A stretch of DNA of 63,060 bases, filler included, from Perkinsus chesapeaki ATCC PRA-425 (GCA_013115145.1; 10 parts of 10 records of this genome joined end to end with filler, not necessarily neighbours in it); one strand, 5' to 3'; counted from the first letter of the whole stretch, positions 584 to 60,010 are shown. Program-made: numbers and translations. Notes: generated by a model not told the origin, from the letters alone.

Positions 584-2072
584 TTACTCGCACTCCGGCT
601 GTTGTACTAGGCGGCCGGCATATTTCGTTAGTCACTCCAGCGTAGTGTTGATAGTGAATTGATGGTCGAGAAAAAGCATCTGTGTAGTCCCTCTTGATAG
701 CCACTTATCGACCGGAACTCTCCGACTTGTTGCTAATCCAGGAACACTCTGAGGGCTCATCCCTCCGGGCGATGCCAACACAACTTCGTGCCCGCTTGAG
801 AGACTAGAATGCCCACATTGTGGTCTTCACAAGGATCAGAGCTTATACTATGATCTTGACCTCATTGAAGAGTGTCTAGCGTTTTCGGAAACAGACTATA
901 TGACTGCAGTGGTTTTAATGACATAGGGTGCTCGGACAGGGGGACGAATGATTGCTATGGTTCCTTGTCCAGAAGAAAGATACTCACGCTGTAACTTAAT
1001 ATTGATCATGAGAGCGGTCGCATAATTAGCGCCCAAATGTTGGTGTAGTCTGTCCAAAAAAAGCTGTTGAGCATAAGACCATATCATTGCAGTGAGATAC
1101 TCTTGGACTCAGAGTCTGATTGGAGCTACAGTGTGGGATGAACCGAGATCCTGGCTGAGGAGCGTTCGACACGCTGGTCATTCACGTTGAGCATTCTCTC
1201 ATTTCCACTGAGAAACTTGAAACTTCCGACTTTCAATCACCCTGTTAGGATCATCCTAATAGGATGGGATAGGCAGGCTTGATTTTAGCATACTCAATGA
1301 TCGGTATGCTTAGTCTCGGCCCGAGACTCTCGGGAATAGGGTGTCAGTTTGCTTGTTCGGATACTAGTTCGGAGCTTGCCTTTATGAGGTCGTGCGCGAG
1401 TAGAAGCTATATGTGTCTTAACAAGAATAGTAACATGGCGTATATATATGCGTACCTGGGAGTGCTAGTATACCGAGATAAGCGAGACAAGATACCGCAT
1501 ACCGAAAGCCGTTGGCAAAATTACACAGGTCGCCACACAAACTCTGTCCCATTACTAATGACCCATTAGTAATGGGTCATTAGTGGAAGATAGAATCAAC
1601 TCGAGCAAGATATCGCGGTAAGCGTAGATTGATCGATATTGAGCTACACGCTCAGCCGAGAGAAGCGACAGCCTTCGATCGCATCGAATCTTTCGATTCG
1701 AATATATACTATCGTATACTAGACGATCCAGATACTTTACGATGAAACGTAGCGATGCCAGGCGCAGCGTATAATGCCTTATCGTTTTTGTTCATAAAGT
1801 ACGAGGCATGCATCAGTTACGTAAATCAATTAGCGGATATCTCAAGGACGTCCAATGAAGCTTAACACAGCCGCGTTTTGTTTTCCACGCCACATCACTT
1901 CCTCCAGACTTGAGAGTTCGAAGTGCTGACGTCTTGAGTGCTGACGTCTTTCGTATAACTCAATCGATCTAGCATGCTCCCTAGTATGAATTTCTATATC
2001 CTCCCAGAATCGGGCAGAGATTAATTGACAAAAAGATCAAGCCGCGACCATAAGACGAATAGATGCAGCACA
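584..2072. repeat. Repeat block A, copy 1; an internally deleted direct copy lies at 9104-9925
   Basis: 584-780 matches 9104-9300, 1195-1345 matches 9310-9450, and about 1780-2072 matches 9630-9925, in the same order and orientation. Confidence 0.85.
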
Positions 2073-2349
2073 AGTTAGTAAATGTGAGCAATAAAGAGAA
2101 CAAAAAATGTGAATTTTCTATACATACCTAAATAGCTGTTTCGGTGAGGCGTGTCCGGCCAAAAACCATACAAGGATATGATATAGCCAAGAGTATCTAA
2201 AAAGAGATTTTTAGGAAGAGTCTGTTTTAGGGGATACAGTTTACGGCCAAACACATAGCGATTGAATGAAGGCAGTAATTCAATTGATATTATACTAAAG
2301 CCACGACCATATGAACAGTTAAGAGAACAGTCCAGTGATACAGGTGGAA

Positions 2350-5300
2350 CAAATTGGTCCCTCCTGGCACTGTATTTCCTACAGCGGCGCACCACAAGCA
2401 CCGCAAAATTCGCCGAAATAACGGATTTTCGCGAAAAGCAGTGCATTCCCGTAGGAAGGCACTTCCTGATCTTAATCGAAGCAACCTACACTGATCAAGA
2501 TGAGAGATGGATGAACCATGCCCCCACGGTAGAAAGAGTTGAGCTGCTCGTCCCCGAGAATCAGATCTATTGTGAACTGGATGAAGTAGCCGAAACTTTG
2601 ATAGGCTTTATAGTTAGAAATAGCTACCAAATGGTACCTATCCGAAATCGGTCTTCGCAGCAGGAGCAGGGAGGCCACCTACCTGGTTGGAGCGAAACGT
2701 GCCTGAATCTTTGCAGGCAATTCAAACTCATAGAGAGAGTCACCAAATGCCAGTAGCAAAATAAGGCCAACAATAGTCCAATACTCAGCACTGGTCGGAG
2801 TGTCAATCTGAACCCACTGTAGCATACCATCACCACTTGGATTCTGAAAGGTGAATACGTTATGCAATACAAAGTTGGATGCGACTGCACCACCATCTCA
2901 TACTCGACGCAACCTTTCAATTATACAGTTGTTTAAATTTGATATGTACAAACATATCAAATTACACTTATAATACAGTGCGAACCAAACCGTTATGCAA
3001 ATTCGTTTTTTTGGTACATAAATTAAGATACAAAAGTACATTTTTCACAAATCCTTTGAAAAACGGAGGTTCAACTCTATAACCTCTAACACGCCACATA
3101 AGATACATGTATATATATTAAAAAATGTCTAGACAATTTCGCCACATCTCTTCGATCCATGGGTGACCAGCACAGTAAACTAGTGGCAGAGAAATTATTT
3201 GCGGAACAACACATTTTCGTTAGGATATGTGATACGACACCCACAAAGGGTGCTGCAGAGAAAAAAGGGTCCTCTTCCAGAATTTAATTGTCGCATGCAA
3301 ATTCCTGAACCTTTAGTATTTCACGTTTGAACGAGTCGAGGCGCTCCTCGGTGGCGACCAACTGTGGACATGCCAGTTCAACCAACATATACTCAAGACA
3401 CTGCAACTCACTGGAGTGAAATTGGAGCTGAGCCATGTCTGCAATAAATGTAGAGAAATAACCGTAATGAAAAACGTTAGCTGGGCCACAGTGGCAAAGA
3501 AGTATGCCTGAACAATGCGCACTTTGCAAAGTTTCATCATGCAGATGTGCTACCATTCCTCGCCCCAGTCTTCTCGTGGTTATCAGACGTCCCCAAAAAT
3601 GTGAAAAGATTGCATTAAAAATGAAAAAGATGCTCTGCGCCGCAACCGCCGTTCGCACGCCCAGGATAGGGGCAACCAAATAACGACTGAAACCTCCGAA
3701 AACATAGCCGACCACCTGAAAGCAAAATTTGGCTCTCCGAAAGTTTCACAAGTGACCATACCATGCCGTTGGTTATACACCCTGGTATTAAGCATAACAT
3801 ATCCTTCTCTCTGAGCCCGAACAGCAAGGTATCCAGCGGTGATGTGACCGGTTCCGGGGCGCCTGAAAATTAAGGTTCGGCGCGCAAAAGTTACATTTTT
3901 CAGGAACATGAGACAAAAACATGACCGCAATAAACGCACTTCTCCTCTCATCAGGAATATTTCGTGCATTAAGCCTTGCGTAGCCTTACCCAAGTATATG
4001 TCCCATTCAGTGGGAGTGAGAAACCATAGATGTAGAAAATTAAGTATTGGTGCTCTCTTGCAGAAACTACGGCTCACAAACCGTAATGCAGTTAGGGCGA
4101 ACCAGAAATGCAACGATTCTCACCGAGTCAGATGAGACCTCACTGGAATAATATTAGATAAGACACGGAGCAAGCACAGCCCTGAAATTCTCAAGTTGAA
4201 ACGCTCCGCAGTTAAGCGTCTGACGAGAAGCGAAAAAAAGACCGAAAAGTCTCATCGATTTACGATTTACGTTACCAGGAATGATATCGCTCTTTGGGAC
4301 AGGAGGGACCATCAGGAACACAAAGCCACTGGCGAGAGGGAGCATCGCCATAGCCCAGAACAGAGGCACTCTCCACCTGAGATATACGATTAGTGATGTA
4401 ATTATGAAAGATATTCTACTCGGCTTCAGGACTAGTCTTGAGCGCTATTATGGCCATGGGAATCAGGAGAACTCCTTGCAGTTGAAGAAGTGTGAAGAAT
4501 ATACAACTGAACCTAAAGGAAATCAAGGGAAGTAATAATCCACTAAAATCCATATTTCTGTAGTGAAAATGTAAGCTTTGTCAGAGTTACAATAAAGAGC
4601 TAGATTTATTGAAAAAAGTAATACTGTTATAGTAGTAGTTTCCTTGTCTACTGCTACAGTAGGTAGTTTCCCATGTTTCAGTAAAAAATATCTTTTACCT
4701 AGAGAGGATCCCAAAATGCAGCCTCGGACTCAAACAAGCAGTTATGGATGGTAACATATCAGTACATAACGCAACTACGCAGGGATGTTCGATGATACCG
4801 TGTGAGCACACACCATCCAAGAACAGTTGATTTTTTAACGCGGCGCCCACATCAATTTCTGAGGAATCGAAAGTTTCAAGTTCATCGATTTCTCCTATGG
4901 TGAATGCCTGAGAGTCATCAAGAGGTTTATTCGACACTGGTTAGCGTTCTTAGTGCGGAGAAATAATGGGAACTTTACATGGAAAATCACCATTACGAAA
5001 ATTTTTAGGAAAATATTTTCCCGGACCCAAAATGAAGTCTCAAATACAATTCTCTCGGGAAACATCTGAAGTTTCTCGCCAGTGAGCGCATCAGTTCGGT
5101 GAATGTGACGGATCTATTAGCCACGTTGAAATCTCAACCATCTCAAAATCGCTGGTACTTTATCAATGGTGATAATGCTATCATAAAAAATCATCGATAT
5201 ATCAACTTACTATCAGATCATGCTGTATTAATAGTACCAAACGAGAGCAGCAAATCTTTATCCTACTTTGTAGTTGTCATTCTGAGACGACTCTGAAAGT

Positions 5301-6330
5301 CCTTCACTGCAATGCAATCTCTGGGCACAACTCCCGCACCTCCGAAACTTGTCAGATCTCTCGAATGGAAATATCTGCATTTCAAATTCACCAAGTCACT
5401 TCGCTAAACTTACGCGCATCTGCCAACGATTTCTTGGGATGTTACAAAAACGAGCGGCGCGCCGAGTCCGACGAGCACGCTGGCGATGATGAAAAGTGTG
5501 GCTGATGAGGTATAGAGTGCCGTTTCACTTTCACCGTCAACCCCAAGGATATTAACGTACCTGATAATCGGAAAAACCGAGAGTTGTTCCGCAATTGTTT
5601 CGAGCTTGAAGCAGTGGAATTGTACTAAGTTAATGAAACTTGATAAGTTATTAAGTGTGCGATTTATTCCGACACATTTGTACATATAATATGATTCTCC
5701 GTCGGAAAATCTCCGACAACTGCAACAAGCCAGGCTTTTCAAGTTGTCCTATAACGAGCTCAAACGTATCTTCCAACCTCTGCAGCTTACAAAAAGAAAG
5801 TGTACCCCAACGATCCGATCGCCGCTAGGAACTTTAGTTGTGTATTCACTTCAAAGAACCTCATCATTGGAGGCATAAGGAAACAACCAACAGTAAATAG
5901 CAAGTACCTGATCATCGTAACACTTGTTCGCCTCTCATAAAGATGATACATACAACCTGTTTACTATATAATATATCCCATCGATGACACAATACAGAGC
6001 GTTCGAATTTCTCATGGACATCAGTGAAGATTATCTATCTCTGGTCCTACGACGGCTTAGGTTGCCGAAGTTAATATAGGAACACGGAAATTGGGGTCCA
6101 CAAGGCTTCATGAATCGGATAAGTTGGTTTGAGGAATGAAGAAGGATGGACTAGACTTATAGAATCTAACCAAAGACTCAACCAACACCAATGGAAGTTG
6201 TTTGAGAAAGTTACTATTGTTAACACTGAACATGATGAAGGTTAGTAATATGATTAGAAGGAGTTTCTTAGAAGTGCCACTAACCGAAAGAATCACTGGT
6301 GTTTCAAATTCAATACCTCTTCTTCGACCC
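2350..6330 (-). CDS. UNC-93-like MFS membrane protein, multi-exon; ends approximate, possibly a pseudogene
   Basis: Minus-strand exons with short GT-AG introns, in UNC-93 order: YLLFTVGCFLMPP..SLGYTFF (~5780-5910); LFIIASVLVGLGAPLVFVTSQEIVGRC (~5415-5500); DTLLFGLREKDMLCLIPGCITNGM|VVGYVFGGFSRYLVAPILG..NAIFSHFWGRL (~3560-3850); LILLLAFGDSLYEFELPAKIQ (~2700-2770); ISNYKAYQSFGYFIQF (~2570-2625). Some middle exons appear to carry stops. Confidence 0.7.
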
Positions 6331-7790: not shown

Positions 7791-7794
7791 TATT

Positions 7795-9080
7795 CATTTA
7801 GCAGCAGCAACAGAACCAGGCACAGCAGCAGTAGTAGTAGTGGTGGCTGTAGTAGAAGATGTGGTAGTCTTCGTGCCAGTAGTATCCTTCTTGTTTTCTA
7901 GTGTTCTCAGCAGCTGTATTAGTCTTGTTCTTGTTTTTATTATTCCTCATATTATCATTAGTATTATTAGTCAGACTAATTTAGTCTTAGTATCATTATT
8001 TTTAGTATTATTCTTATTATTTTTTTAGTATTCTTCTTTTTTTTCTCTTATCATCACTGCTATCATCAGACTCCTCGTAGTCATCGTTGTCAGAGGCGTA
8101 GCCAGGCTTCCTCAAGTCTTCAGGGGGCGCCCGAGGGGCAGCTCTTTTCCGCTGGGTGGCTGACAGCCCAATATTTCTACCAGATTATTTTCAAACTAAG
8201 AACTAAAAGCGGCGTGGGTATATATAAGTCGCTGATTGCTTGGCATAGAAAACAATTGCAAAAAGTAAAAAGCAAACTTTAAGTTAGCAACTTGTTGAGG
8301 ACTCCTCAATGAGGAGGTCTCAATGACATGCACACTGCAAATGTACCCTTACAGCACTCAGCAATGCACCTGGGGCAATGCCCCACGTGGCCACCCCTAT
8401 ACACCTGGGTGGCGTTGAGGGGGCCGCCTAGAAAATCAGGGTGGCCTCCGATACGATTCGTTGTCATCGTACTCACAAGATGAGGACGCATCTTCATCAG
8501 CAAGGACTTCCTCCTCGGCCTCAGCGGTCGTGCCAGTAGTAGTAGTACTAGGAGTGGTGGTAGTAGCAGTACTAGTAGGATCGGTTGTTGTAGTAGTGGT
8601 GGTAGGAGTGAAAGTATTGGCAGTAGCTGCTGCGGCAGTAGGTGTGGTAGTATTGATAGTACTTTGACGTCCAGCTGAGAAAAAAATAAATTAATAATAA
8701 TTTATACAATAACTAAACTTACTTTACGCCCATGCTGTTTCCCTGTCAGGGAATCCCTGAGCAAGGTCCTATTATAGCCGGCTAGAGCCATCAACATGGA
8801 CTCATTCAGCCCGCCGCTCCCTTTACCGCCGCAGCGGCGTTATTTCCATTGGCTGGAGCGGCGAGATTGATGTTTGGAATTGTAGTTGTTGCCGTTGTAG
8901 TGGTTAGACTGGGAACGCTTGGGCATTTACAACAAACAAACCTAAACAAAGAAACCTAAACAAAAAAAACTAAACATAACAATAAAACTAAACTAAAAGA
9001 TAATCAAATATCTGAATAACTACATAGCAAACTCAACAATTACAATAACTACAACAAAGTGCGGATACTACATCATACTT
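7795..9080 (-). pseudogene. Degenerate Thr-rich mucin-like gene remnant
   Basis: Minus-strand Thr/Ala runs (TTTPTAAAATANTFTPTTTTTTDPTSTATTTT; CKCPSVPSLTTTTATTT; TTTSSTTATTTTTAAVP) are broken by stops. Two 14-nt scars lie in the region (8295-8316, 8739-8760). Confidence 0.45.
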
Positions 9081-10635
9081 GGGACAGTAATCTACAGCTC
9101 ATGTTACTCGCACTCCGGCTTTTGTACTAGGCGGCCGGCATATTTCGCTAGTGCGTCACTAAAGTGCAGTGTTGAAAGTGATCTGATGGTTGAGAGAAGC
9201 ATCTGTGTAGTTCCTCTTGATAGCCACTTATCGACCGGAACTCTCCGACTGGTTGCTAATCCAGGAACACCCTGGGAGCTCATCCCTCCGGGCGTTATTC
9301 GCGTAGACCATTTTCTCATTTCCACTGAGGAACTTGAAACTTCCCGCTTTCAATCACCCTTTTAGGATGGGATACTATCCCAGGGATAGGCACCCTTGTT
9401 CCCAGTATACTCAATGATCGGTATGCTTAGTCTCGGGAATAGGGTGACAGTTTGCTTTTTCGGATACTACAGCATTTCCCGCTCATGTTTCCGACACGCG
9501 CACTGTTATTTCCGAGCGATCACGAGCAAAAACCCGGCGCGTCGCAATTATTTCCGACCACGCTCATTTATCTGATTCGGTCAGGTGCAATATCCGACGA
9601 ATACAGTCATTCTAATATAAGCCTTATCGCTAGTGTTCATATACTTGAGGCATGCATCAGTTGCCAAGTCAAAATAATTAGCGGCTGTCTCAAGGATGTC
9701 CAGTGAAGCTTAACAAAGCAGCATTTTGTTATTCACTCCACAGGAAATTCCTGTCAGGAATGTCTCCGGACAGAAGAGTTCGGAGCAATTTGCTTCACGT
9801 CTTTAGTATTGTCTAATCGATCTAGAATGCTACATAGTATGAATTCTTGCATTCTCTCAGATTGGAACACAGCTTGATTGACAAAAAAACCTAGTCGTGA
9901 CCACAAAAAGAATAGATGCAGAGCAATCTTTTATTATCGACTAGATTCTAGCGGTCGCAAAATTCCACTGATACTTCTACTTTGACTGGTTATCGATAAT
10001 ATTGCTTTGTTCCTTACCAAGTAGTACGTAGTGAATGCCTTCGCAAATAGATGCTTCACCGACCTACTTACGCACGCAACTGGGTCGCGTTATTGAAGTC
10101 TACCCCAAAAGGTTTTCAGCTGAGTATCCGCTTTTTACCTTTGTTATTATATAAATGTAATATATACTATTTAGATATATCTGTAGCAGTTAGGATCTTA
10201 AAAAACGCACAAGTCGAAACTTAGGTCAATTCACTCATAGGGTGTTTCAATTCCTTATGGAAGTCTTAGTTGTCTCTGGGCACAGGGCGGCTTAGGGTGC
10301 CCAAAAAAATCGAATGAGATATCGATCAACAGTTTCACTGACCGTTTTCAAGGTTCAACTTACTGCATGTTATTGTTTAATATTTCCATCCTAGAAATGA
10401 GTACGGTCATCATGCAACTCAACAAGGTACAGGTGAGAAGTTTAAAAATATCATACGTCAGCCTATTATAACTCGGGATACCCAACCGGAACGAAGCAGG
10501 CTGTCGACCATCACTCCACAAATAGCTTTCCGATTCAAATCGATCACTCTCTCAGTGATTCTGGCAAGCTCTCGTTGGTGTCTGAGGACTCAACATTCTT
10601 CAAAGATGAGAAATAATCTGTATGCGAGATGTATG

Positions 10636-13600
10636 CTAACTAACCATACATCTTTTCCCACGGTAAGCCTTACCTTCTGAATCTTCGATGGGTTTGCCGA
10701 TAACCTCCACTGGCAACGCGATCTCATCTTCGGTGGCCTCGACATCGTTGCGAAACGATACGAACCGGCGTGCCAGCAGAATCACAGTTGTTACGAAACA
10801 CACCGCGGAAGAGATAATTCGCAAAACCGTATGAAGCATAAAAATACTTGAAGCCAGCAATGTGAAGATAACGGCACGACGGAAGAAGGTGACGCCTGAG
10901 GGGGCAACTACGCGGACGGAAAAAAGAGCATTGGGAAGGGTGGAAATGAAATAACATATTACAATTTACTATTTTACTAGTGTAAAAATAAATTATATAA
11001 TCGATTGGATGAAATAACATTTTACTAATGAAAAAAAAATTATATAATCGGCTATTTTCACACATTCCCAAAACTTCCCAGTAGCTCGATGGGTGAAATT
11101 GTTACTTATCTTGTCAGCTAGTCCATTTCCAGCCAAAACGCCGAGTATCGAACCAACAACAATGGAACTTATCAATAGCCCGTCGATGTCTTCCATGAGA
11201 CCGCTCGTCACCACTGTTGGAAGACGACCGACGTTATTCACTAAAACAAATAAGAATACGAACAAGAAATGTGAGAAGGCGACAGAAATCCGGGAAGGGA
11301 AACACAACGAGAAGAGATACTATGGGAAAGCGAATGCCGGCAAAAACGGGATGAGACAGAAACAGTATACAGGAGCAGCCAAAGAAAGATCTGGTCCCTC
11401 GAAGGAGGCCTATCATCAGGCAAATCGTCGCCACTCGACCATGACATATGTCTACCTGTAAATATTAGAGCACTAGTTCCACGCCATGTCGTGGGGTCCG
11501 GCTCGGCTAGCAGAACCCACACCATCATAGGTGGACCACCAATACCTAACAGACGGAAAGAAAATTCTCAGAAATTATCCAGATTTCGTCCCGCAGATGG
11601 CGATGATTAATCTGTGTGGCATGGAGATAAGAGTAGACGATGAAAAAACGGGCGAGCGAGAAATGCATCATATTGGCTGCTGAACCATCTCATCAGTAGA
11701 GTTGCCATATGGAGGGAAGAGTTAGGGGAATATGTCTTCCCCCTGTAGTATTGCAGCAGGAGTCAGATCTTGGACGTGTAGATGTAATTGTGCCAGTACA
11801 CAATCCGAGTATCTCCTAGCTCTAGTAGTACTCATTGATGTGTATACGTCGATAGTTAAGCTTCTATGAGTCCATCAGGTAGCGAGTTATGGTGATTACA
11901 GTATAAGATGATAGCGCCCATGGACGGCAGTGCAATTTATTATAAATTATTTATAAGAAAACCACGAATAAGTTGTCACCATTAATCCTCCGAGCATGAC
12001 AGAGATGTCAGAGAATCATGCACTTGTACTGTACATATTAGTAATTATTATAATAGTAACCATAATATCAACTGTTGATATCAGCGCGAGTACTATAGTA
12101 CATAGTGAGACACGATGCAGAAGCCTTCTGCCAAAAGGCCAACAGAGTGACTCACTGAAAAGGCCTATCATTGCTCCACTCGCAATTCCAGCTACAGCCG
12201 CGCCAAGTAACGTCTTTCTTGTCATCACCGTTTTGGTATCATCACACGTCGATGTGGGAAAACCTAATAGGCACTAAAGACGGTAGGAAGATCTAATTGT
12301 AAAGCGACACATAGGTCTTTTATCACCATTAGAGACCCTCTACGATATCTGTGGGTGATGGCGCAGCGCCATTGGAGCGGCATTGGCCATTAATTTCCAT
12401 CAGCGTCACTCGCGGCATTCGAACTATTCGAGGAAGTCTCGTGATGTTGAGAAGTTTTGGCGGCAATATCCCTCTCCACCACACGCACCCACATTTCGGA
12501 GTCAGGAGGGCTTCACGGATGTGTCGTCGTATCACAGGAGCATATATCGAGTCCATCATGGACTGTTCATGCCACCTCCAGCCCGAAGGTTAGATTCGCT
12601 CGACAAGCACTATGCGAGGCAGGGATGATTCACACTCTCATGATGCAGGGCGCAAGGCAGTGGGGGAAAATTCATTTTGCCGAAGCAGAGCAAACTCAAG
12701 AAGCAAGTCTTGCACGCGGAGCTTACTCCAGAACTCGTTGACAAATTGCCATAATCCGACAACAAGAAGAATCACTCCCAAAACAGCTTTTAAAACATCA
12801 GCTTCATTTGACCATTTTTTCAACAGCATCGTAAATACTATCGTAGTAGGAAAGCCTAGAAAAACAACCGCATATTGGGCGTTACGCATTTGTGTCTTAC
12901 AAGTGACGAGAACTGCCAAGAAAAGTTTAATGCTTGCGGCTCTCCAAAGCATGATCAGTTGGGAAAGTGCCATTGCTGGACTGAGTACCTTAAGAGTGAC
13001 GTGAATTTCGTAAGTGTCACCCAATCACGGGGTATCAGAAGTCCGCACTGCGAACCAACGGGGTTACGTAATGTTGCACGGGAGTCCAGTGACTGGACGC
13101 AATCGATGTCCAAACATATTGGATTGTTGTCTTAACATCTTTGGTGTAGAACCCGCTGCAACACCCTCCTCTTACACATGCCAAGTTCGACTTCGCAAAA
13201 GATGAGCTCACGAGAGCACAATAAGCCGATATCCTCGAAATTGATGAGCGCTTAGCCGACTTCGAAACCGTCAACGATTGGGACGGAATTTTGTACGACC
13301 GAATCCCTTGGCTACTCCATTAGCCTCCGTAGGTGACGCCTACTACGCCTACTAGGCGTGAATTACAGTGGTTTTAGCGAACCTGGAGCGCTTATACCGA
13401 GGGTCCCGACGACGAAGAAAACGTCTCCTCTTCCTGGCGTTGACGCTAGTGATGTCAGTGACCGGGTCACTGTGCGCAAGACCAAAGTAAAAAAGCAGCT
13501 TTTCAAAAGCTCTGAACTCCGAGCTAGGATTCCTAAAGCCTGTCAGTCTTCTATCTCCGAGTCCCGGAGGGAGGTTCTGAGATCGACCTGGAGACGGTTG

Positions 13601-15717
13601 TAATGACTCGCCAGACCCGGACGAGTCGGCCATGTCACGTGCTGAAGATGACTTCATTAATAAACTGATCCAAGGCCTTAACCACGACTCGTGGTCTACG
13701 AATCTCCTTCCGATTGCTCCGACGACCCCTCTAGAAGACTGGTTAAAAAAGAGGCTATGGACCCAATCGAGAAGGCGGGTGTCAAACCAGCGATCGCGCT
13801 GCTGCTAATTAACGAAAGTCCTTCCATTCAACCGACGCATAGGTGTGAGCATTCGCCCGAGGAATTTTTGATCCGGCATTCACTTCGCAGAAGCGAGGTG
13901 AGTAATAGTTTTCAATATCTGTCAAGGCGCCTACATGTCCATTATCATTCAAGTCAGCTCTATTCAGATCTGATTCTAGTCGACCGAGCATTACTCTTGG
14001 GCTTAATTATAGTTACATTCATCGTGATGAAAGACATCTATGTCGTCAGAACATTTGATAGGTGCTTCTTCGACGCATTTTGTCACAAAAGTTTTGCCTA
14101 AATCAACTTTGACATGGCTCCAATCCAATTGCAAATAGGCGTTCATTGTTTCTGGCAGCAGGGAATGTCTTACCTGTCTACGGCGATAGTGATGCTGACG
14201 GATATTGTTCCTCAAAAGAGCGATTTCTATCAGTATCAATCGATATCCATTTGATCAATATAAGGAGCCTTATTAAGGACCACGCCGAAAGCATGAATAG
14301 TACAGGGAAACTAAGATTAGACTAATCTGATTAGTTTCGATCCCTATTCGATCCTTCCCTGATGTATATCTACAGTGTAGAGGTCTACCGGTTATCCCCA
14401 TAGAACCCCCTAGTTCCCTGACCAATTTCGGTTCGTTCAGCTTAGATCAACATGATAGCAACAGTAGCTTTCTCGCACCAGCGAGAAACCGGCGATTCAA
14501 CTCTTATAATTTTAGTTGACCGCTCGGTGCTTGAATCAATGACCTTTTGAGAAGGTTCTCCTGAATTTGCCCTTTAGCTGATCGAATCAGGGGATCAGCC
14601 TGATCCTCTATACCGCAGTATCGCTACACGCAAAGCTCTCACGCGACGAATCCAGAGAGAGCTTCCCGTTATAAGGTGGCCATAGACGAGGTCTACCTAC
14701 ACTGGTTCAAAGCGTACCTAGTATTCCGTCGGAATGATCCCAAGAAAAGTACTACTTAAGGCTCGTTTTCCCAATTATCTCACCTTCTCTTATCATGGGC
14801 ATCGTTCACAGGTATGATCGATTCCGAATTTTCTAGTTCAGGGCCTTAAACTCTCAATTTGGGGGTCCCAAGTTAGCGCCTCTTAGTACGGAAACGTCCC
14901 GCCCCCTGCTGGGAAGCAGGAAAGGTCCCACTCTAGGAAGAGATGTTGCTGTCTCCTCCGTCGGGAAAAAGGGTCGCCCGGGGCGACTCGCCCCCAGGAA
15001 ACATTCTACGCTGGCAGAATGTCCCTCGATGGGACCTCTTGGTGGGCAAATAAGGATATTTGTCACTATGCTGAGCTTTATGTACTCCTATGGTTGGCTT
15101 TCATGCCGACGTACTCTGTGCGCGGCGCACAGTACCCCTGCCCATCGGTTTAAATTTTTTAGGTAGGAAGTTCGGATTATTCCAGTGGGATAAATGCTCA
15201 CGTGCTCAAAGCCAATACTAACGAACGACCTCCCCAAAAAACTCACAGCAAGATGTACCGTCGCAGTGACCACGGAGCCGTCACACCATTGCGGAAAACC
15301 AATACCAAGGAGATTCCTGAGACAGATGGACAAAGTAGGTTTTGCCGCAAAACTTCTGCGTTACTGATGGATGAAAGCGGATCACACAAGGAGTCTCCCC
15401 TTGGGGGAGCGAGTTGGAATGATTCGCAAGATTGGCAGGTGTTGCTAGCAAGAATGTATGAATCAATTCTGAGCGAGGATACCCGTGGTGCAAAAGTTTC
15501 ATTCTTACTCGAATTATTACCAAGCGTAAAAAACGGTGAGCGTCTAAGAACTGGAGATGCTAATTCAGCAAATAGTTCGAAACATACCATTATCAAATTA
15601 AGCAACTTACCATATTATATGATACAAAATGGCGTTGCCAAAACCACTTATGGCATAAATTATGCATGAGAAGAATGAATTAAGGAAAACGAGAAGTGCT
15701 CCTATCAATGGTATCAT
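10636..15717 (-). CDS. TauE/SafE (DUF81) family anion/sulfite exporter-like membrane protein, paralog 1, multi-exon
   Basis: Exon 1 15717-15611 MIPLIGALLVFLNSFFSCIIYAISGFGNAILYHIIW splices in frame to exon 2 15316-15247 NLLGIGFPQWCDGSVVTATVHLA. Later exons: VLSPAMALSQLIMLWR (~13000), LGAAVAGIASGAMIGLF (~12200), GIGGPPMMVWVLLAEPDP (~11520), DIDGLLISSIVVGSILGVLAGNGLADKIS (~11150); last exon to the stop at 10636. Confidence 0.8.
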
Positions 15718-19400: not shown

Positions 19401-20459
19401 AGGCACTCTCATCCGAGCATTTTTACTTAAGGAATGCCTACCAGGAATTGTAAGGTAAATGGTGAGCCACAGATCAGCAGTTCTCCACAACTTAATAAAC
19501 TGTATGGCCGCCATAATTGGAGACAGCACCTAGCACACAACGAATCGCACAGCTCTCCAACTTGATTTGGAATTAAGCTTGAAAACATCGATGATCGAAA
19601 CTAAACCGAATTTAACTATGAATTCTGATTATGTCATGCGTAGGTATATTACACTCGTCACAGCTTTCGCGCCGAATAGAGGAGCAATTAAGTGAAAATG
19701 CTTCTATCTCGAGGAAGTTATCTCCAATCAAAATTTCTGATAACTCGGAACACATTTCGATCTCATAGGAGCAGTCTTTCACAAGGTAGGACGGTCCGCT
19801 TCTTGCACGTACGCGCAAATGAATGAATTCAGACGTCTTATGAAAATCGCTCCGTGAAGGCGATAGATTACACTTATATGTGGTCACATAGTGCACTTAA
19901 AAAGGATATTTTTTTCCCTGAAACTCTGGAAAATACTCAGGAAAATATATACAAGAATAAGGATGATACAGAATAATACGCAATAAATTTTCAGCATCTG
20001 AATGATTATCCATCACTGAAGCACTCACCGCCACGGTGGCGCCGCCACCTGCAGGGCTCCGGCTCGTCCAAAATCGCTTGCTGAACGCAAATTGCGTATC
20101 ACAATCTTATAAATTTATACTGTACAATTGAAAATTATTTTTTCAGAATAGAGTTATGAAACTCTGGAAAATAATTAATTATTTTATTAAAATTTTCCCA
20201 ACATATTTCACCACCGAAGCACTCACCGCCACATGCACGGCTCCGGTGACCACAGAACCATCACAGTACTCATGAGGGACAACGAACCCAAGCAGGCACC
20301 TGGCATGAAATGAACCCATCGAGCTCGAAAGTCGTACCAAATTATCTGATATAAAATTGCGTTGCCAAAGCCAGAGATGGCGAAGAGAGCGCATGATAGC
20401 ATCGAGATGACCATGGTGATCAGCAAAGTAGGGATTGGCGTCACGAGCGTTAGCAGCAT
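16452..20459 (-). CDS. TauE/SafE family paralog 2, multi-exon
   Basis: Same exon series as paralog 1: LFAISGFGNAILYQIIW (~20340), YCDGSVVTGAVHVAV (~20250), LSPIMAAIQFIKLWR (~19500), ASVTGAASGVMTGLFS (~18250), GIGAPPCMIFVLLAHP (~17820), DIWLIIALNVGGVTGLFLGNSLSHHI (~16770). Confidence 0.8.
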
Positions 20460-21072: not shown

Positions 21073-24000
21073 TCAGTCACTCGTAAATGGCTGAGCCCTA
21101 TGACGTGTAGAGAGAAAAATGCCGCAAGAGCACACCAGGTCCCCAAATCTCCCGAGAATCGATATGCACATATGGAAGTAGATGATATCAAATAAGAAGT
21201 CCACTTCGCCTACCACGACTTTTCCTTTTTTTGTACTTAGTCCAGCTGAGGCCGATAAACATTAAAATAACAGCCACGGCAAGTATAGGAATGAATATAT
21301 ACATCGGGGTCATCATAAAGGATGATATCAATAGGAACACATCTATAGAGGCGCGGAAGAGTGATGGACCTGAGAAAGATAGATGAAAAATTATGCAGCA
21401 TATTCAGCATGAACCATTACCAACATTCCAGAAGATATTAAAATGAAATATTATCCTTTATATTACAAGGCTTATTCCAAATTAAATTTATCAAGATCTC
21501 GAAATCAAACCAAAGTTCTATCAGGAGCGAAATTCATAAAAATTAATTCCGAGATTTCATAGTGTCCATTATGATCTGAATCGGCTAGATTTCTCAGGCC
21601 TGGCTTTGTGGCTTCGAACCTGTCACAGCCTTGGCGACCTGACTCGGGTCACCCGAGATCCCACCGACCCATTTAAAACGGATTCGAACAGCACCGCGAA
21701 AGCAACGATAAAGTGGAGGAACGATTCCCGCCTTACTGACGTAACGGCTGATCCTGTTTCCCAATACCAAACCACAAACGGCACCGAGATTGAGCGCCAA
21801 GACGGTCCAGAGGTCGATGTTGTCGAGGAGCGAGCCGGCAAGCAATACCGGCAGTCGAGTGAACACGTGGACGACTAAGGTGAAGAGCAGCTTATTCGGG
21901 ACCTCAGAAGATCCATTTTGCACAGCCTGCCCTGGCTGCAATTTTGTAATGATTGAATCATAAACCGGGGAGAGTTTCACTTTTTAATTTATCACCAACA
22001 TGATATTCGGTTTTGTTTTAACCCTACATAAACGTGCTGGGGCGATCAACCGCTGACTTCAATTCTTCTAGCGTGAAAATATGGTTAATTACGATACACT
22101 TATAACAATCAGATTGCAAACAGTTGGGAGGTACGAGTTATCATTAATAAGTAAAATGTTGAAGTATACCAAGCACAGTATACCTCGACGTTGTACATCT
22201 TTTCAGTAGTTAATAACTTATTGAACTACTGAAAAGAAGTACAGAATCGAAAGAGACTAAGACTATTTTTCGCGCGACTGAGATTTCCGTATTCCGTATG
22301 CCTACCAACGTTGAGCGCCGCAGCAGTGCTTCGCCAGGAAAGGGGATCAGGGTTAGTTAGAAGCACAAAGATCATATTAGGTGGGCCGCCAATACCTGAT
22401 ATCCAAGGTTGAAGCAGGTAAGATACAAACTAGGTTAATAGCGCTGCACCTACTAAATAATCCATTCATCGCGCCACTTGCCAGTCCGGCAAGAAGTGCG
22501 CCACCTTTCAACTGCCAAGGTCCACTGGGGGACAAATTAAGTTTTTTGGTAGTTCTTTGAGATGTACCTTCGAAGCCAGAAATAATTCTTTACATATTTC
22601 CTGAGACTTCCATTGTCACAATTCGAGCCAAAAGGGACAATTCAATGACCGATTCAATATTCAAAACGATACGCATTCGATGATTCTCGCCACTCATCAA
22701 CATACAGTGAATTACATGTCGACAAGTGACCTCAAATTGGTGTGTGTTGGGCTTGGGATGACAATGTCGCTCCTGTGAGGTAAGAGCTGACGGGCGACGC
22801 CGCGTCCCACCACTGTTGAAGAACGGAGCACAGCAATCACCCGCCTGCAAATCTCTTTCACTCGGTTAGTTTCCACGAAAACGCCGAAAATCTGTCTTGT
22901 GGAATTGTTACTCACTTCCATCCGATTTAACATGCCGTTTGATTTCGCCATATATTTGCCAGAACGCAAGAGCGCTCAATATAGCACCGAGAATGCTGCG
23001 CAGCAAGGGAACCTTAATAAGAATAGACCACACCAAATTCAACCGGCCGCCTTTCCTTCCAGCAGTAGAGATAGCGCGAATCCACACTGTCGAATTTCGA
23101 GGCATTATTGCGCATAACTGGTAGCAGAATAATAACTGAAAATCTTGGTTTTTGACATTTCTGGCTAGAGTCCATACAAGACACTAAACTCACGCAACGC
23201 GAGTCGCGTTCACGGAAGAGTGGTCTCATATACCAGCTAACGGCCAAAAGTAGCTCTGAACGAAATGCCTTAAAAGTACCAATTCATTTGATGAAAAATC
23301 TCTACCATAGCCTTCAAAAACCTCAACATATCCAACGACTAAGACATACACTTACTTCGCTCTGTAATGTGTCCAGCAGCATTGTACACGGAATCGCAGC
23401 GGAAGCAGCTAAAAGGAGAATCAAATTCGCTCAAACTTGCAGTAAGGTCGATGAAATTTCAATACTAGTAGATTCCTCACCGCTGGGAAGAGGAGTTGAA
23501 CATCGGTTTACCTGCTATAGAAAGATACGCTGCTAGCCAGTAATTCGCACTGCGCCACAGCTTGAGGAACTGGATGATTGACATCAAGGGAGCGTGTAAC
23601 TGAAGGCGATAGTGGAGCTTCCGGTACCCCGAGTCTTGGGGTCCAAGAGCAAGTTGAACGAAGCATAAGTTTGGGGGGGGGTTGGCTTCGACGACTCCCG
23701 ACTCATTAGAGTCGGCCAGGCCCAAGCGCAACTCGTGAAATTCGAATCATGGCGATCGGAGATCACAAAATGAAATAAAAGTAAGAAAGTTACAAGCAGT
23801 AGGGTGAACTTGAACACAGAGGCAATAGTCATACCGCATCACCAGACTGGTGACACCAGTTACTGGTAATTGGCTTAACAGTTTTGTCACAAATGCCATC
23901 ACAGATGTGCTCTGAGGGCTCTTCCCTCTGCCACGAATTGTAACAGAAGGTGTCAAAGAAACACCTATCAAATGCTCTGACAGCATACGTCTCATTTATC

Positions 24001-39090: not shown

Positions 39091-40704
39091 TTCAGTCCTG
39101 CTTATAAGTAAAGTATTGCATTTTGTGATATCGGATACGTATTAACGTATTTATGATAGCGAAGAACATGTCAATGCGAACTTCTGTTGAGTTGATAGTG
39201 ATGCGGAACGGCATGGCAGATTGAAAACGATAATTTGATAAAGATGCGCAAACCTACCCGGCAAAGTAGTAAGCTTGGAGCACGAGTGTTTTTCTTGGAT
39301 ACCTCATCCACACGGGTTCTGTTCTTCATCAGATTACACCAAACGCGTTGTGTATATCGTTAGTTCAGCAAGTTATAGGAGCTAGTAACAGCTGGTAGCA
39401 GTACTGTGGTCCCATCGCAACAATCTTAGAGTTGCCGTATCGCCGTCATTTCTGGATGAGACTGTGGGCATTGAAGGTCTCCCCCCTGAACTAGTCTGCT
39501 GTGTTTCGTATTGGCCTCCCCCAGTACAGTATCTTTGCCTACGCGAGCCTATCCTCAATCAACACAACAGTAACAAGTGTGCATGCGATTCTAACTGCGA
39601 TGCTAACAATAATGTCAAGTGTCGATTAGTTTCGTGACTTAACCGAGCTACATTCGCGTTGCGAGTGATCATAACGAACAAGCATATCGCTTCGATGGTA
39701 ACGTATATGTTGATTAACAAAAATGTATGTACGTATAACATATCCCTTGCTACAAGGGTAGAAAAGCCTGTCGAAGGCGAGCCTAGCCCTCGCCGTGTCA
39801 CCACAGGAGTATCCGAAACGGCTGGGATTTTTGCGGTAGCGTAGCCGCTAGTTGGACAGCCTCAGTTAGGAAAAGTTCAGTTAGTTTTACGTCATCAACC
39901 AACTCTCTCTCACGAAGGCGGATGGGGCAGCGCAGTGCACCCAAGCGAGCGGNNNNNNNNNNNNNNNNNNNNNNNNNNNNNNNNNNNNNNNNNNNNTTAA
40001 TTAATTAANNNNNNNNNNNNNNNNNNNNNNNNNNNNNNNNNNNNNNNNNNNNTCATAAACCTTATATCAAAGTGGATATCTTATACAATTCACAAAAGAG
40101 ACTTATCAATCTATGTAATCCTTACAACTAGCGCTAGGGGACAGTAACGGGGACATATCTTTTGTGCCCACACAAAGTAGCGATTAGTTAAGATTGCAAG
40201 AATAACAAAGACGGAACAGAATCACACTATAATTGTTGTCTCTCTACAGCCTGCTCGACAAAAATATCGATCCATTTATTATACCACCAGCGCTGTGGCG
40301 TTGGTGTTACTCTGCACTACAGAGCTTGCAGCACTCTGCTGTTTTGTGACCTTGTTTCACCCATGGTGCCCGGCTGCGTTGAGCAGTGATATTCCGCGCA
40401 GTCTCCGCACGCATTGCACGGTAAAGTGTTTTGCGTATAGGTGCATCTCGCGAAAAACGGCGAGAAACCCTCGAAATGGCGCAGTGCAATGTGCATTGCA
40501 CCAGTGTTTTGCGCTGCACAGGTGCAACTCCAGTGTCTTCGCGAGCCGATCCTCAATAAACACAACAGCAAGACGAGTGAATGGGTAAATCGTCTGGTTC
40601 CAGCGGATCGAGTTGTCACAGACAGACACCGCTAGACATATCAATTATTGATAATCAATATATCAGCGACACAAGATAGTTCTAAGATGTATATGGGTAT
40701 ACGT

Positions 40705-42450: not shown

Positions 42451-42873
42451 AGTCCGGCGTGTAACAGATCGCTCAGATTGCATGATCACGAAAGCAAATA
42501 ATGACACCCAGGTTCGATTCCCACTGGGAATTTCCCAGTGGCGGCATATGACTATGATATGATGAATTGCCCACTTGATAAATCTTGCGCTTAAGCTGTG
42601 TTGCTGTCCCGTATCTTTTTTAGCCTAGCCAGGCCGCCTGAGCCAATACTGTATATACTTGATTATCTNNNNNNNNNNNNNNNNNNNNNNNNNNNNNNNN
42701 NNNNNNNNNNNNTTAATTAATTAANNNNNNNNNNNNNNNNNNNNNNNNNNNNNNNNNNNNNNNNNNNNGAACAATTGATCGATCGAACAACAATAATTTA
42801 TATAACATATTTTTATATTATAACAGGAAAAATCTTGTTCAATTGATCAATTTCTAGAGTTCTTTTTATTATC

Positions 42874-51660: not shown

Positions 51661-53227
51661 TCAGATAATTCTTCTCATCTTGAAGGCGGCCGGTGTAAAA
51701 TTTATTTGATGTATTTAAAACCCACACAAGCAGCAGCAGCTGTAGTGGCAGTCTAGGGCCAGATAGCGTATCCTTCTCCTCTGAGCTAGGATGTCCCCAC
51801 CGTCCATGATCTGGGTTTGTTATTCACCATATTTGCTATTATATATCCTCTTGTGACGTGCTTGCACTAACCATGCTTCTCGTTGCTCACGTTAAAGGTG
51901 TCGCACTCTTATGAACAAAGATAAGCAGTGCTAAGTTACCAATGGGCAGCTTGGGTTGAGTCTTCAATGCTCCAGCGGTGAGGGGGGGTTCAGGGATATC
52001 ATTTGATCCCGCCGACATCCTTGCATGGAAAGATGGCAAGTCGTTGAAAGTTCCTCCTCACTGCTTCGAAGAAAGAAAACTCTCGAGCTGGGATGTAACT
52101 TGGACACGTTCCATCGTGGTGTTGATGATACCTCATAACTCCATGGTATTAAAGCTTCATCGCTACCTTGGGTGCAGTTATTCATTTCGCACCAATGCGT
52201 CCCACCTCCCCAGACGTCGTCGATGAGGCCACCTCGAAGGCTCTAGGATCTCTCATGTCAAACGGTAACAACTCCCTCACCAACGATTTCATTAAGTCGC
52301 TTCTTTCAGCGTTGAATCGCGGGACCCCTCGCCAGGATAGGTCAGGTAGTGGTAGCGAGTTGAGGGTCTGTTAATCGCCATACCGACTTTTTCTCAGCAA
52401 TTGGGTCCCAAGATGCCTCGCCAAATATCCCACTTTTCCACAAGACTAGAGCCTGCGTCTATTACGAATCCGGGTAATCAAAGATATTTGCATCTTTCTC
52501 TTCGACGGTGACTCGTATTAACTCTTCATCTTCAGTCGAGGATGCGTACATGGAGAAAACTGCCTCTACGCGCACGGGACTGAGGATCTGAAAACAGCTC
52601 CGGACCTCAGGTAAAGAAGGGGAGGATGCACGACAAGGATCGACGAGGGAATAATTATAATGCATTTGGTGGCACATATTTCCTATCAAACTCCTTTCTG
52701 TTATATCTCCTCCTCCGTATCACTAGTAACATATTTCCTATCAAACNNNNNNNNNNNNNNNNNNNNNNNNNNNNNNNNNNNNNNNNNNNNTTAATTAATT
52801 AANNNNNNNNNNNNNNNNNNNNNNNNNNNNNNNNNNNNNNNNNNNNTGCGGTGCCACATGCTAGGCTGCCTGCGGCGGCGAACTGCCTTTTCCTCGGTAG
52901 ATCTCTGTGCTGCTACGGACAGCAGCAGGGTCCGTACTTGTTGCACGCTCCTTGCATGTCCAGTGTTTACATGTGGTAGTCACCTTGGAAGCTGAACCGC
53001 TCGCACTGGGGAGGCTGGCTATGCTCACGAAGAGCTTCATTGACTACTAGTCAATGACTAGCTGTTACGCTGGGGTAACAGCTTTGCAGAGAACTGACAA
53101 GAGTGATTCAGTAGTTACGAATCACTAGTATCATTCAGCCGTTTCAACGGCGTTTCATTCGCGCGCATTTCGCGCGCCAGGGACCATTGCTTAGATTACT
53201 GCTGCTTTGGATTGCTCAGTTTTAGGG

Positions 53228-57407: not shown

Positions 57408-57412
57408 CTTTG

Positions 57413-58246: not shown

Positions 58247-58351
58247 ATCCCTCCCGTCCGCACCAAGCCCGGACCGGCTGCAGGACCATCAACGGCAGCA
58301 ATATCCACCAGGTCCCAACCCCACCCCATACTGAATACGGGATGATGCACA

Positions 58352-59302: not shown

Positions 59303-59502
59303 GATCCCTGTATGCCTCTAGCATACGCTCTAGCATACGGAAGGCCGCTCTTTAGCACCGGAACCTCCTGTTCCGTTCCCCGCGTCACCCATCCGCTGAC
59401 GCACGCGTGCACATGGAGTTACGCTTCGCCGGATGCCCATAGGATTTTACAACGAGACACTAATGTGTATCGATATATAAAATCCTTGTCGCGCATCCTT
59501 GA

Positions 59503-60010
59503 TCATCGCAGAGACGTTGGGCGAGAAGCGAGGACGAACAGGCTGCTCAACAGGAGATGAGTCTCGATAAGTACAGCGCTTGATAAGTGCCCTACCGAGA
59601 GACGAGTTCCGCTGTGATCCCCAAGACCAGTCGTTCGTAGTACGAAGTTACTTCGTACTCGCATCACGCTCAGACTCTGCGATGCCGACAGAGAGAACCG
59701 AACCCCACCATTCCTAGCGGACCAGTCAGCAATCTCTTTGCTACGAAACTCATTGTCACTTCGTACATACAAGGGAAAACCGTTGCGCAGACAAATGGTT
59801 GTTAAGGCCTTCAGGTACGAGTTATGTAACTGGTCGGTAACAACCTCAAAGTCCACTGAAATAGCAACAAGCAGTTAGCAACATACCTCCTTGACCAACG
59901 TGAAGGACATCAATACCGATCTTCCGCCAAGGGGCCATATGACGATCAGGTGATCGAGTACCATGTGGGACTTTAACCCTGTTTGTATCATCCACCTTCT
60001 GGCATATTTC
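59503..60010 (-). mobile_element. Degenerate LTR-retrotransposon integrase core fragment
   Basis: APWRKIGIDVLHV (~59900) and LKALTTICLRNGFPLYVRSDNEF (~59750-59820), with frameshifts. Confidence 0.7.

What the first reader, a model, noticed from the sequence alone, without database searches (positions are those of the whole stretch)
1245..59658. Stereotyped 22-nt '7-1-6-1-7' scar (+14 nt), perfect 14 times: probable hairpin-mediated excision footprints of an 8-bp-TSD transposon
Seen: an 8-mer X appears as X1-7, complement(X8), revcomp(X2-7), complement(X1), X2-8. Perfect cases (X): 1245-1266 TTAGGATG; 1313-1334 GTCTCGGG; 8295-8316 TTGAGGAG; 8739-8760 TTCCCTGA; 9368-9389 TGGGATAG; 9740-9761 ACAGGAAT; 14314-14335 AGATTAGT; 14973-14994 GTCGCCCC; 23839-23860 TCACCAGT; 32024-32045 ATAGATGG; 32531-32552 TCGTCGGG; 40639-40660 TATCAATA; 42517-42538 ATTCCCAG; 53040-53061 TTGACTAG. 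One-mismatch cases: 1555-1576, 20028-20049, 31456-31477; variant with filler: 59633-59658. Fourteen positions are fixed by X, so chance expectation is about 6e4 x 4^-14, or 2e-4, per window at uniform composition. Established: hAT, Transib/RAG and the MULE Muta1 leave hairpins on flanking DNA, giving inverted additions centred on the complement of the junction base. Inference: both TSD-derived hairpins open to expose the same 6-nt inverted core and anneal there, giving one fixed footprint rather than the usual heterogeneous spectrum. That would be a genome-wide fossil record of transposon visits and a major indel source, suggesting microhomology-dominated repair. I do not know of this fixed signature being described for this lineage.
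Basis: partly seen in the sequence, partly recalled or inferred. Interest (0 to 1): 0.9.

Follow-up and report, generated by a model that had tools for sequence, protein, structure and literature searches.

The report
Uniform transposon excision scars in Perkinsus
This piece of a Perkinsus (shellfish parasite) genome carries about 50 identically built 14-base insertions, several of them missing from other copies of the same sequence, that are likely scars left when a cut-and-paste jumping gene, not itself seen here, cut itself out and the broken ends likely rejoined through an 8-base overlap.

Summary
It is simply X1-7 + revcomp(X) + X2-8. There are 21 perfect, 15 one-mismatch and 17 two-mismatch cases in 59.3 kb, against 0, 0.03 and 0.6 in shuffles. 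Only 8-mers trimmed by one base per side are enriched. The DNA is Perkinsus. Seven sites are empty in paralogues or other genomic copies, so these are true insertions (+14; one variant +39).

The geometry is what a hAT-type transposase would leave: an 8-bp target duplication, a nick one base into the flank, and flank hairpins. Hairpins opened 8 or more nt from the tip would share the whole 8-nt revcomp(X) (not 6 nt) and funnel into one product. X shows a weak T2/A7 bias.

A published table scores Ku70, Ku80 and Lig4 present in P. marinus, so loss of classical end joining is not supported. No element or hAT transposase was found. The scan has reported this scar on other Perkinsus DNA at least eight times. 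Verdict: new variant of a known kind.

The parts
1245..1266 (.). perfect scar, X=TTAGGATG; the paralogue near 9362 has the empty 8-mer
1313..1334 (.). perfect scar, X=GTCTCGGG; exact 14-nt gap in the paralogue near 9430
1548..1584 (.). compound cluster: three overlapping 1-2-mismatch registers and a 15-nt one-base-centred palindrome; likely repeated events, not resolved
5695..5716 (.). one-mismatch scar
8295..8316 (.). perfect scar, X=TTGAGGAG
8739..8760 (.). perfect scar, X=TTCCCTGA
9368..9389 (.). perfect scar, X=TGGGATAG; the paralogue near 1265 has the empty 8-mer (reciprocal to the 1245 scar; the two targets overlap by 2 nt)
9740..9761 (.). perfect scar, X=ACAGGAAT
12117..15360 (.). dense field: one-mismatch scars at 12117, 12550, 13077, 13490, 15339; two-mismatch at 12358, 13681, 15117; perfect at 14314 and 14973
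14314..14335 (.). perfect scar, X=AGATTAGT
14973..14994 (.). perfect scar, X=GTCGCCCC
20028..20049 (.). one-mismatch scar; exact 14-nt gap in the paralogue near 20226
21636..21657 (.). one-mismatch scar
23839..23860 (.). perfect scar, X=TCACCAGT
24688..24709 (.). one-mismatch scar
31456..31477 (.). one-mismatch scar
31490..33426 (.). host sequence, not the cause: decayed multi-copy Tc1/mariner-type element (TA flanks, inverted 41-bp subterminal arrays, weak DDE_3 hit) that has collected scars its other copies lack
32024..32045 (.). perfect scar, X=ATAGATGG; three contigs from other copies span it with 14 gap letters (gap position not printed; the only scar in the span)
32201..32222 (.). one-mismatch scar
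32531..32552 (.). perfect scar, X=TCGTCGGG; '14 letters left out' at 32532 in other copies (run X4, depth 401 of 542); also skipped by the run X1 joint
32558..32604 (.). non-canonical two-ended footprint of one 8-mer (+39 nt): left hairpin arm 15, filler, right arm 6; absent from other copies in run X1
33782..34161 (.). long one-base-centred palindromes (arms 21, 12, 20) and a two-ended +33 variant at 34066-34106; present unchanged in public contigs
34511..35093 (.). one-mismatch scars at 34511, 34999, 35072
40639..40660 (.). perfect scar, X=TATCAATA
42517..42538 (.). perfect scar, X=ATTCCCAG
53040..53061 (.). perfect scar, X=TTGACTAG
59633..59658 (.). non-canonical two-ended footprint with 4 extra bases (+18 nt), X=GTTCGTAC

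Best explanation
The 22-nt strings are 14-base insertions of the form X1-7 + revcomp(X) + X2-8 at unrelated 8-mers in Perkinsus DNA, and they are likely excision footprints of a hAT-type transposon whose flank hairpins were likely opened far from the tip and rejoined through the 8-nt revcomp(X) overlap. Steps: (1) Insertion duplicates an 8-bp target X (inferred; only k=8 is enriched). (2) On excision each flank is nicked one base inside the duplication and the 3'-OH attacks the other strand. The left hairpin reads X1..X7 then complement X8..X1; the right one is its mirror image (inferred from the one-base trimming; flank hairpins are established for hAT elements). (3) The host opens each hairpin 8 or more nt from the tip (inferred; arms of 12-21 nt at variant sites show that distal opening or copying happens). 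(4) The two 3' tails both carry the 8-nt word in complementary sense, anneal, lose their flaps and are filled in by 7 nt per side. Any pair of distal openings then gives the same +14 product (deduced). When annealing fails, longer arms with filler result. The scars are mutational debris with no function of their own; they accumulate mainly in gene-poor and repeat DNA.
For: Geometry exclusive to k=8 with one base lost per side: 21 hits, against 0 for the other 15 trimmings and 0 for k=7 and 9-13. Classes 0/1/2 mismatches 21/15/17 against 0/0.03/0.61 in 100 shuffles. Empty state seen for 7 sites: 1245, 1313, 9368, 20028 in in-window paralogues; 32024, 32531, 32558 in other genomic copies. One-base-spacer palindromes with arms 7/8/9/>=10 number 55/17/5/9, against 3.9/1.0/0.1/0.05 in 40 shuffles; spacers 0 and 2-5 give at most 5/3/1/2. 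Non-canonical footprints keep both 7-base ends and both complement centres of one 8-mer: 4 rows (3 loci) with arms summing to >=8, against 0.18 by chance. T at X2 or A at X7 in 20 of 42 positions against 11.4 in local nulls, P=0.004, the direction of the nTnnnnAn preference of Hermes/hobo (motif recalled). Ac/Ds footprints are palindromes centred on the complement of the base beside the element, with microhomology in 85-100% (Arabidopsis) and 88-89% (yeast) (PMC5873905, passages). Cleavage at the flanking nucleotide and a dominant single footprint (11 of 17) are reported for Ds in Arabidopsis (PMC1978519, passages).
Against: No X-element-X site was seen: no TIR pair with an 8-bp duplication in the window. 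No hAT domain in about 313 of 342 ORFs of >=62 aa scanned with Pfam. The whole genome was not available. The T2/A7 bias weakens to P about 0.02 with mismatched scars (27 of 70; 37 of 100), and I looked for it after seeing the logo. P. marinus is scored as having Ku70, Ku80 and Lig4, so nothing yet explains why short tip-opened footprints are scarce: the +8 type is 4 against 1.1 by chance, max 5. Precise excisions and deletions leave no recognisable trace, so the share of events that give this scar is unknown.
Confidence: 0.75

Rival explanations
1. Same chemistry, but the element is not a hAT: an 8-bp MULE, an untargeted Dada relative (no terminal inverted repeats, so missed by TIR scans) or Merlin, all with 6-9-bp duplications.
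For: Dada and Merlin families are reported from P. marinus; Merlin has 8- or 9-bp TSDs, and 8 bp was not excluded for some Dada (PMC3706591, PMC8101967, passages). The MULE Muta1 forms flank hairpins (PMC5499845, passages). No hAT was seen in the window.
Against: Muta1 excision is over 90% precise when TSDs flank the donor. No k=9 or k=7 scars, although MULE and Merlin families often give 9 and Dada 6-7. Known Dada targets are fixed RNA-gene motifs, whereas X has almost no consensus. P. marinus Merlin copies lack recognisable TIRs and TSDs. The one-base offset with complement centre is the described hAT signature.
Confidence: 0.13
2. A hit-and-run or domesticated hAT-like nuclease: insertion is followed almost at once by excision, or a short host DNA piece is cycled, so scars pile up with almost no resident elements.
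For: About 50 recognisable scars against 0 resident 8-bp-TSD elements in 59 kb. Mismatch classes 21/15/17 are nearly flat, as expected from steady deposition over a long time (inference).
Against: A few ordinary active copies elsewhere in a roughly 44-Mb genome (size of run X1's contigs) would leave the same trail over time. One gene-poor window of short contigs under-samples intact repeats.
Confidence: 0.06
3. Replication template switching, or polymerase-theta-type fold-back synthesis, copies 8 bases from the opposite strand and returns, with no transposon involved.
For: The four-point template-switch model can create inverted and direct repeats from one event (PMC5453318, passages). No element was found. 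Filler at 32558 and 59633 may be templated.
Against: Template switches have a length distribution and often start from existing inverted repeats. Here 15 of 16 geometries at k=8 and k=7, 9-13 are empty, and the empty paralogues show no pre-existing palindrome. Nothing in replication fixes 8 and 1.
Confidence: 0.04
4. Assembly, library or amplification artefact (fold-back chimeras).
For: The public runs may be the source data and are contigs, not reads.
Against: Two samples of two studies hold the scars at full depth with 0-1 differences over listed pieces. Scars have decayed by point mutation (32 of 53 carry mismatches). They differ between paralogues.
Confidence: 0.01

Closest known systems
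Ac/Ds (hAT) excision footprints in Arabidopsis, S. cerevisiae and Candida albicans (PMC5873905, PMC1978519; passages read)
   Same: Palindromic additions centred on the complement of the base next to the element; one flank base lost per side; microhomology at the join; long arms occur (up to 20 nt in yeast); one footprint can dominate at a given site.
   Different: Those are heterogeneous, site-dependent spectra from engineered donors (28 types among 128 clones in Candida, mostly very short). Here one length-fixed +14 product recurs at dozens of unrelated natural sites and is fixed in the genome at about 0.9 per kb, while the short +8 type is not clearly enriched.
Ascot-1 footprints in Ascobolus immersus (Colot et al. 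1998; recalled, paper not held)
   Same: Natural hAT element with a flank hairpin and strongly biased repair products.
   Different: One locus with many distinct products (recalled). Whether its commonest product has the 7-8-7 shape could not be checked.
Muta1 (MULE), Transib and RAG flank hairpins (PMC5499845, passages)
   Same: Hairpin forms on the flanking DNA and is opened by the host.
   Different: Muta1 mostly excises precisely. Untrimmed geometry (X + revcomp(X) + X, expected for a nick exactly at the junction) has 0 hits here. Transib's 5-bp duplication (recalled) does not fit.
Short template-switch mutations (Loytynoja and Goldman 2017, PMC5453318, passages)
   Same: A local reverse-complement copy flanked by direct repeats.
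   Different: Variable lengths and switch points; no fixed 8/1/1 geometry.

Membership tests
hAT excision footprint | 8-bp target duplication as the unit | tested here: met
   21 perfect at k=8, 0 at k=7 and 9-13
hAT excision footprint | one flank base lost per side; palindrome centred on the complement of the junction base | tested here: met
   only trimming (1,1) of 16 is occupied; 1-nt-spacer palindromes strongly enriched, other spacers near background
hAT excision footprint | footprint is derived; an empty single-copy target exists | tested here: met
   7 sites empty in paralogues or other copies
hAT excision footprint | microhomology at the join | tested here: met
   the central revcomp(X) belongs to both palindromes in every perfect scar; read from sequence, not from an assay
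hAT excision footprint | occupied state X-element-X at a scar site | tested here: inconclusive
   none in the window or in the rows shown from laid contigs (most loose-end rows not shown); no allele panel available
hAT superfamily (the causal element) | hAT transposase and short TIRs in the genome | not testable with these tools
   whole genome not held; none in about 313 of 342 window ORFs
hAT superfamily (the causal element) | target preference nTnnnnAn (Ac/Hermes type) or central TA (Buster type); motifs recalled | tested here: inconclusive
   T2/A7 20 of 42, P=0.004; 27 of 70 and 37 of 100, P about 0.02; central TA 0 of 21
RAG/Transib-type footprint | no flank base lost; short (5-bp) duplication | tested here: not met
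   trimming (0,0) gives 0 hits at k=7-11 and 1 at k=6
MULE (Muta1-type) excision | mostly precise excision; 8-9-bp or longer duplications | tested here: inconclusive
   no k=9 scars; precise events cannot be seen
Dada | 6-7-bp duplication inside a fixed RNA-gene motif | tested here: not met
   k=7 empty, k=6 has 2 hits; X has no consensus; ARAGORN finds 0 tRNA genes
repair in a lineage without classical NHEJ | Ku70, Ku80 and Lig4 absent | not testable with these tools
   this species' genome not held; P. marinus is scored 1/1/1 in Table S1 of PMC6635534, which argues against
template-switch mutation | spread of copied lengths and switch offsets | tested here: not met
   single geometry dominates; the minority variants keep the same two ends

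The most novel reading that the evidence does not exclude
Perkinsus keeps Ku and Lig4 yet cannot open DNA hairpins at the tip, so nearly every visible excision of an 8-bp-TSD element collapses into one +14 scar. The responsible enzyme is not an ordinary resident hAT but a near-invisible hit-and-run, TIR-less (Dada-like) or domesticated transposase. The genome would then be a countable, datable log of thousands of its visits, and it would reveal the cleavage chemistry of an uncharacterised transposase family.
Probability: 0.15. Interest if true: 0.8.

Novelty: new variant of a known kind. Interest (0 to 1): 0.5.

Why it matters
Excision footprints are normally too heterogeneous to recognise once the element has gone. 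Here a self-checking 22-nt signature gives back the target 8-mer, an age (0-2 mismatches) and a position. Past transposition can therefore be counted, dated and mapped from one genome, and target preference read without the element. In this window recognisable scars add about 730 nt, roughly 1.2% of the DNA (52 excess scars x 14 nt in 59.3 kb; computed). Because 14 is not a multiple of three, a scar in an exon is a frameshift, so this is a real mutational load in a mollusc parasite. The scars are also homoplasy-poor presence/absence markers for strain typing, and they point to an unusual hairpin-opening step in a lineage whose best-studied species is scored as retaining classical end joining. 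The underlying chemistry is textbook, which caps the surprise.

Tried and rejected
Whole genome not held, so no genome-wide count, no hAT search and no Ku/Lig4/Artemis check in this species.

TIR + 7/8/9-bp duplication scans found only low-complexity or chance pairs and the contig linkers. Pfam scans of about 313 of 342 ORFs >=62 aa found no hAT, MULE or Merlin domain. The roughly 29 ORFs left out were low-complexity or antisense frames. The window's Harbinger and Tc1-type elements were rejected as the cause: the Tc1-type copy has TA flanks and is itself scarred; Harbinger's 3-bp duplication is recalled.

My starting guess that Perkinsus lacks classical NHEJ was dropped. Metagenome scans for more Perkinsus DNA gave 0 loci and 1 weak, unused locus. 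The protein Atlas did not answer.

Laying contigs on 1-20000 showed no 14-nt indel among the rows shown (5 rows hidden) and no isolate polymorphism for these scars. The second, diverged sequence set in sample S2 aligns only in patches, so it was uninformative. The +8 'two complement bases' footprint is not clearly enriched (4 against 1.1, max 5). The 3- and 4-mismatch classes (43, 142 against 8, 67) were not used for counts because they mix with variants and shifted registers. The cluster 1548-1584 was dropped from the target-bias test. The 15.6%-GC contig was dropped from the palindrome and two-ended scans, and one search also left out the last 1.3-kb contig. I suspected the palindromes at 33782-34161 of being read noise; they are present unchanged in both runs.

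Papers not held: Yu 2004, Colot 1998, Scott 1996, and look-ups meant for Lazarow 2012, Hickman 2018, Yuan and Wessler 2011 and Arensburger 2011. Their footprint tables may already show the 7-8-7 product.


Full report
OBSERVATION. A direct scan finds all 14 listed perfect cases and 7 more, 21 in all, at core length 8. Lengths 7 and 9-13 give none. The string simplifies to X1-7 + revcomp(X) + X2-8 and is the same on both strands. Over 16 trimming geometries at k=8, only loss of one base per side is occupied (21 against 0 for the other 15). Scoring each position by majority of the three copies, classes with 0, 1 and 2 mismatches hold 21, 15 and 17 sites in 59,310 bases, against 0, 0.03 and 0.61 in 100 order-4 Markov shuffles. 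Three of the 53 are overlapping registers of one cluster at 1548-1584.

CONTEXT. The window is ten contigs joined by 100-base N linkers. The Harbinger-type transposase at 54597-55721 has its best relatives in Perkinsus marinus (87%), P. chesapeaki (69%) and P. olseni (60-66%), then drops to 39%. I read the DNA as Perkinsus, species not fixed. Perfect scars fall 12, 4, 3, 0, 0, 0, 1, 1, 0, 0 over the ten contigs. None lies in the long intact ORFs (Rep-like, integrase, Harbinger pair) or in the exons of the PP1-type phosphatase gene, by comparison. No whole genome is held. Five public runs from two samples and two studies hold 99% of sampled words. Their contigs match the window with 0 or 1 difference over the listed pieces. 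They may be the source data, so they exclude an assembly slip but are not independent populations.

THE SCARS ARE INSERTIONS. The paralogues 1177-1366 and 9294-9469 differ reciprocally: the first has scars at 1245 and 1313 where the second has single 8-mers, and the second has a scar at 9368 where the first has the single 8-mer. With scars collapsed in the script, the pair aligns at 130 of 148 columns with 4 gap characters. The scar at 20028 is a clean 14-nt gap against its paralogue near 20226. The decayed Tc1/mariner-type element at about 31490-33426 is multi-copy, and other copies lack its scars. Fourteen letters are left out at 32532 (run X4). Three contigs spanning 32024 have 14 gap letters (position inferred). 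A run X1 joint skips both 32531 and the +39 variant at 32558. That makes 7 sites with a visible empty state. For the others no second copy was in view.

DOMINANT, NOT UNIQUE. Perfect palindromes with a one-base centre and arms of 7, 8, 9 and >=10 nt number 55, 17, 5 and 9, against 3.9, 1.0, 0.1 and 0.05 in 40 shuffles. Spacers 0 and 2-5 stay near background. Sixteen one-base-centred palindromes with arms of 8-21 nt are not centres of canonical scars (counted from the list; about 1.1 expected). A scan for sites that keep both 7-base ends and both complement centres of one 8-mer finds 21 canonical sites. It also finds 4 non-canonical rows at 3 loci with arms summing to >=8 (0.18 by chance), such as 32558 (+39; arms 15 and 6) and 34066 (+33; arms 4 and 12). 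The +8 type with two complement bases is 4 against 1.1 (max 5), not a clear excess. So the visible spectrum is mostly one product with a tail of longer ones. Precise excisions and deletions would be invisible.

MECHANISM. Established: hAT, Transib, RAG and Muta1 form hairpins on flanking DNA that the host opens (PMC5499845, passages). Ac/Ds footprints are palindromes centred on the complement of the base bordering the element, mostly joined at microhomologies, with arms up to 20 nt in yeast (PMC5873905, passages). Cleavage falls at the flanking nucleotide (PMC1978519, passages). Deduced: with X on both sides and a nick one base in, the left hairpin unrolls as X1..X7, then complement X8..X1 and onward, and the right one is its mirror. 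If each is opened 8 or more nt from the tip, both 3' tails contain the whole 8-nt word in complementary sense. Annealing, flap trimming and 7 nt of fill-in per side give exactly the scar, wherever the openings were. This funnel explains the fixed length, and the long-armed variants show that distal opening (or copying round the hairpin) occurs. A nick exactly at the junction would give X + revcomp(X) + X, which has 0 hits. X has little consensus. T at position 2 or A at 7 occurs 20 of 42 times against 11.4 in local nulls (P=0.004), and 27 of 70 and 37 of 100 with mismatched scars (P about 0.02); central TA is 0 of 21. This fits the recalled nTnnnnAn preference of Hermes/hobo but is weak and post hoc. 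The near-flat 21/15/17 series suggests long, steady deposition (inference).

AGAINST, OR MISSING. No TIR element with an 8-bp duplication, no hAT domain in about 313 of 342 ORFs, and no occupied allele. Table S1 of PMC6635534 (one row and the header read; main-text passages) scores Ku70, Ku80 and Lig4 present in P. marinus. My initial idea that loss of classical end joining causes the uniformity is therefore not supported; the hairpin-opening step is the better suspect, untested. The Perkinsus CRISPR paper (PMC8062965, one passage) gives no repair data. Dada and Merlin occur in P. marinus (PMC3706591, PMC8101967, passages) and remain minor rivals. Template switching (PMC5453318, passages) can make the shape but not the fixed 8/1/1 geometry.

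NOVELTY. Ten full-text searches (listings seen) showed no description of this scar or of excision footprints in Perkinsus. However, the library lacks the key footprint papers (Colot 1998, Yu 2004, Scott 1996 and others), whose tables may contain the same product as one of many. The scan's own notes report the same scar and the same hAT reading on other Perkinsus DNA in 11 findings, 8 shown. These are unchecked AI notes and not independent support; I had stated my reading before seeing them. Two of them prompted the palindrome-spectrum and ascertainment checks. Searches of the notes for a Perkinsus hAT element found none.

VERDICT. Real, derived, and best read as hAT-type excision footprints (0.75 for an ordinary hAT; about 0.94 for any flank-hairpin transposase with 8-bp duplications). 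The chemistry is known. The new aspect is one convergent product fixed at about 0.9 per kb, which makes past transposition countable. New variant of a known kind; interest 0.5.

Noticed in passing
window 43115-44254 (+): Intact-looking 380-aa ORF with weak Pfam hits to a replication-associated HUH protein (REP_ORF2-G2P, E 0.0025) and a P-loop NTPase. It looks like a CRESS-type Rep with helicase, or an HUH transposon, on its own 1.5-kb contig.
   Followed up: partly
window 54597-56626: Divergently oriented Harbinger/PIF pair: DDE_Tnp_4 transposase (-) and Myb/SANT protein (+), both open; relatives in three Perkinsus species.
   Followed up: partly
window 56664-59317 (-): Three long overlapping or adjacent ORFs (320, 291, 321 aa) with no Pfam hit beside the Harbinger pair; possibly part of an unrecognised mobile element.
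   Followed up: no
window 60111-61678: Contig of 15.6% GC with short G/C-rich motifs among AT runs; may be mitochondrial DNA (guess from recalled Perkinsus composition, untested).
   Followed up: no
window 31490-33426: Decayed multi-copy Tc1/mariner-type element with TA flanks and inverted arrays of a 41-bp subterminal unit; DDE_3 remnant at 32645-32902.
   Followed up: partly
window 2974-3016 and 19228-19274: Two multi-copy ends of another TA-flanked, CAGTG-starting Tc1-like family in inverted orientation, 16 kb apart.
   Followed up: no
window 49980-51600 (+): Intron-rich PP1-type serine/threonine phosphatase gene (Metallophos hit at 50363-50605); no scar in its exons.
   Followed up: partly
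window 5300-13000, runs X2, X3, X5 (sample S2): Sample S2 holds about twice the sequence of S1 and a second copy of several stretches at equal depth, about 85% identical and only in patches. This suggests a second Perkinsus genome or a diverged subgenome in that sample.
   Followed up: no
window 42500-42550: The scar at 42517 interrupts a tRNA B-box-like motif in a degenerate tRNA-like sequence; ARAGORN calls no tRNA in the window.
   Followed up: partly
window 37803-39090 (+): Two adjacent Thr/Ala/Ser-rich ORFs with signal-peptide-like starts and hydrophobic ends, mucin-like surface proteins by appearance.
   Followed up: no
window 44355-46023, 40705-41406, 61781-63058: Retroelement remnants: integrase (H2C2 and rve hits) and a weak Ty3 capsid hit; 27283-27687 is a 27-bp tandem array.
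   Followed up: no
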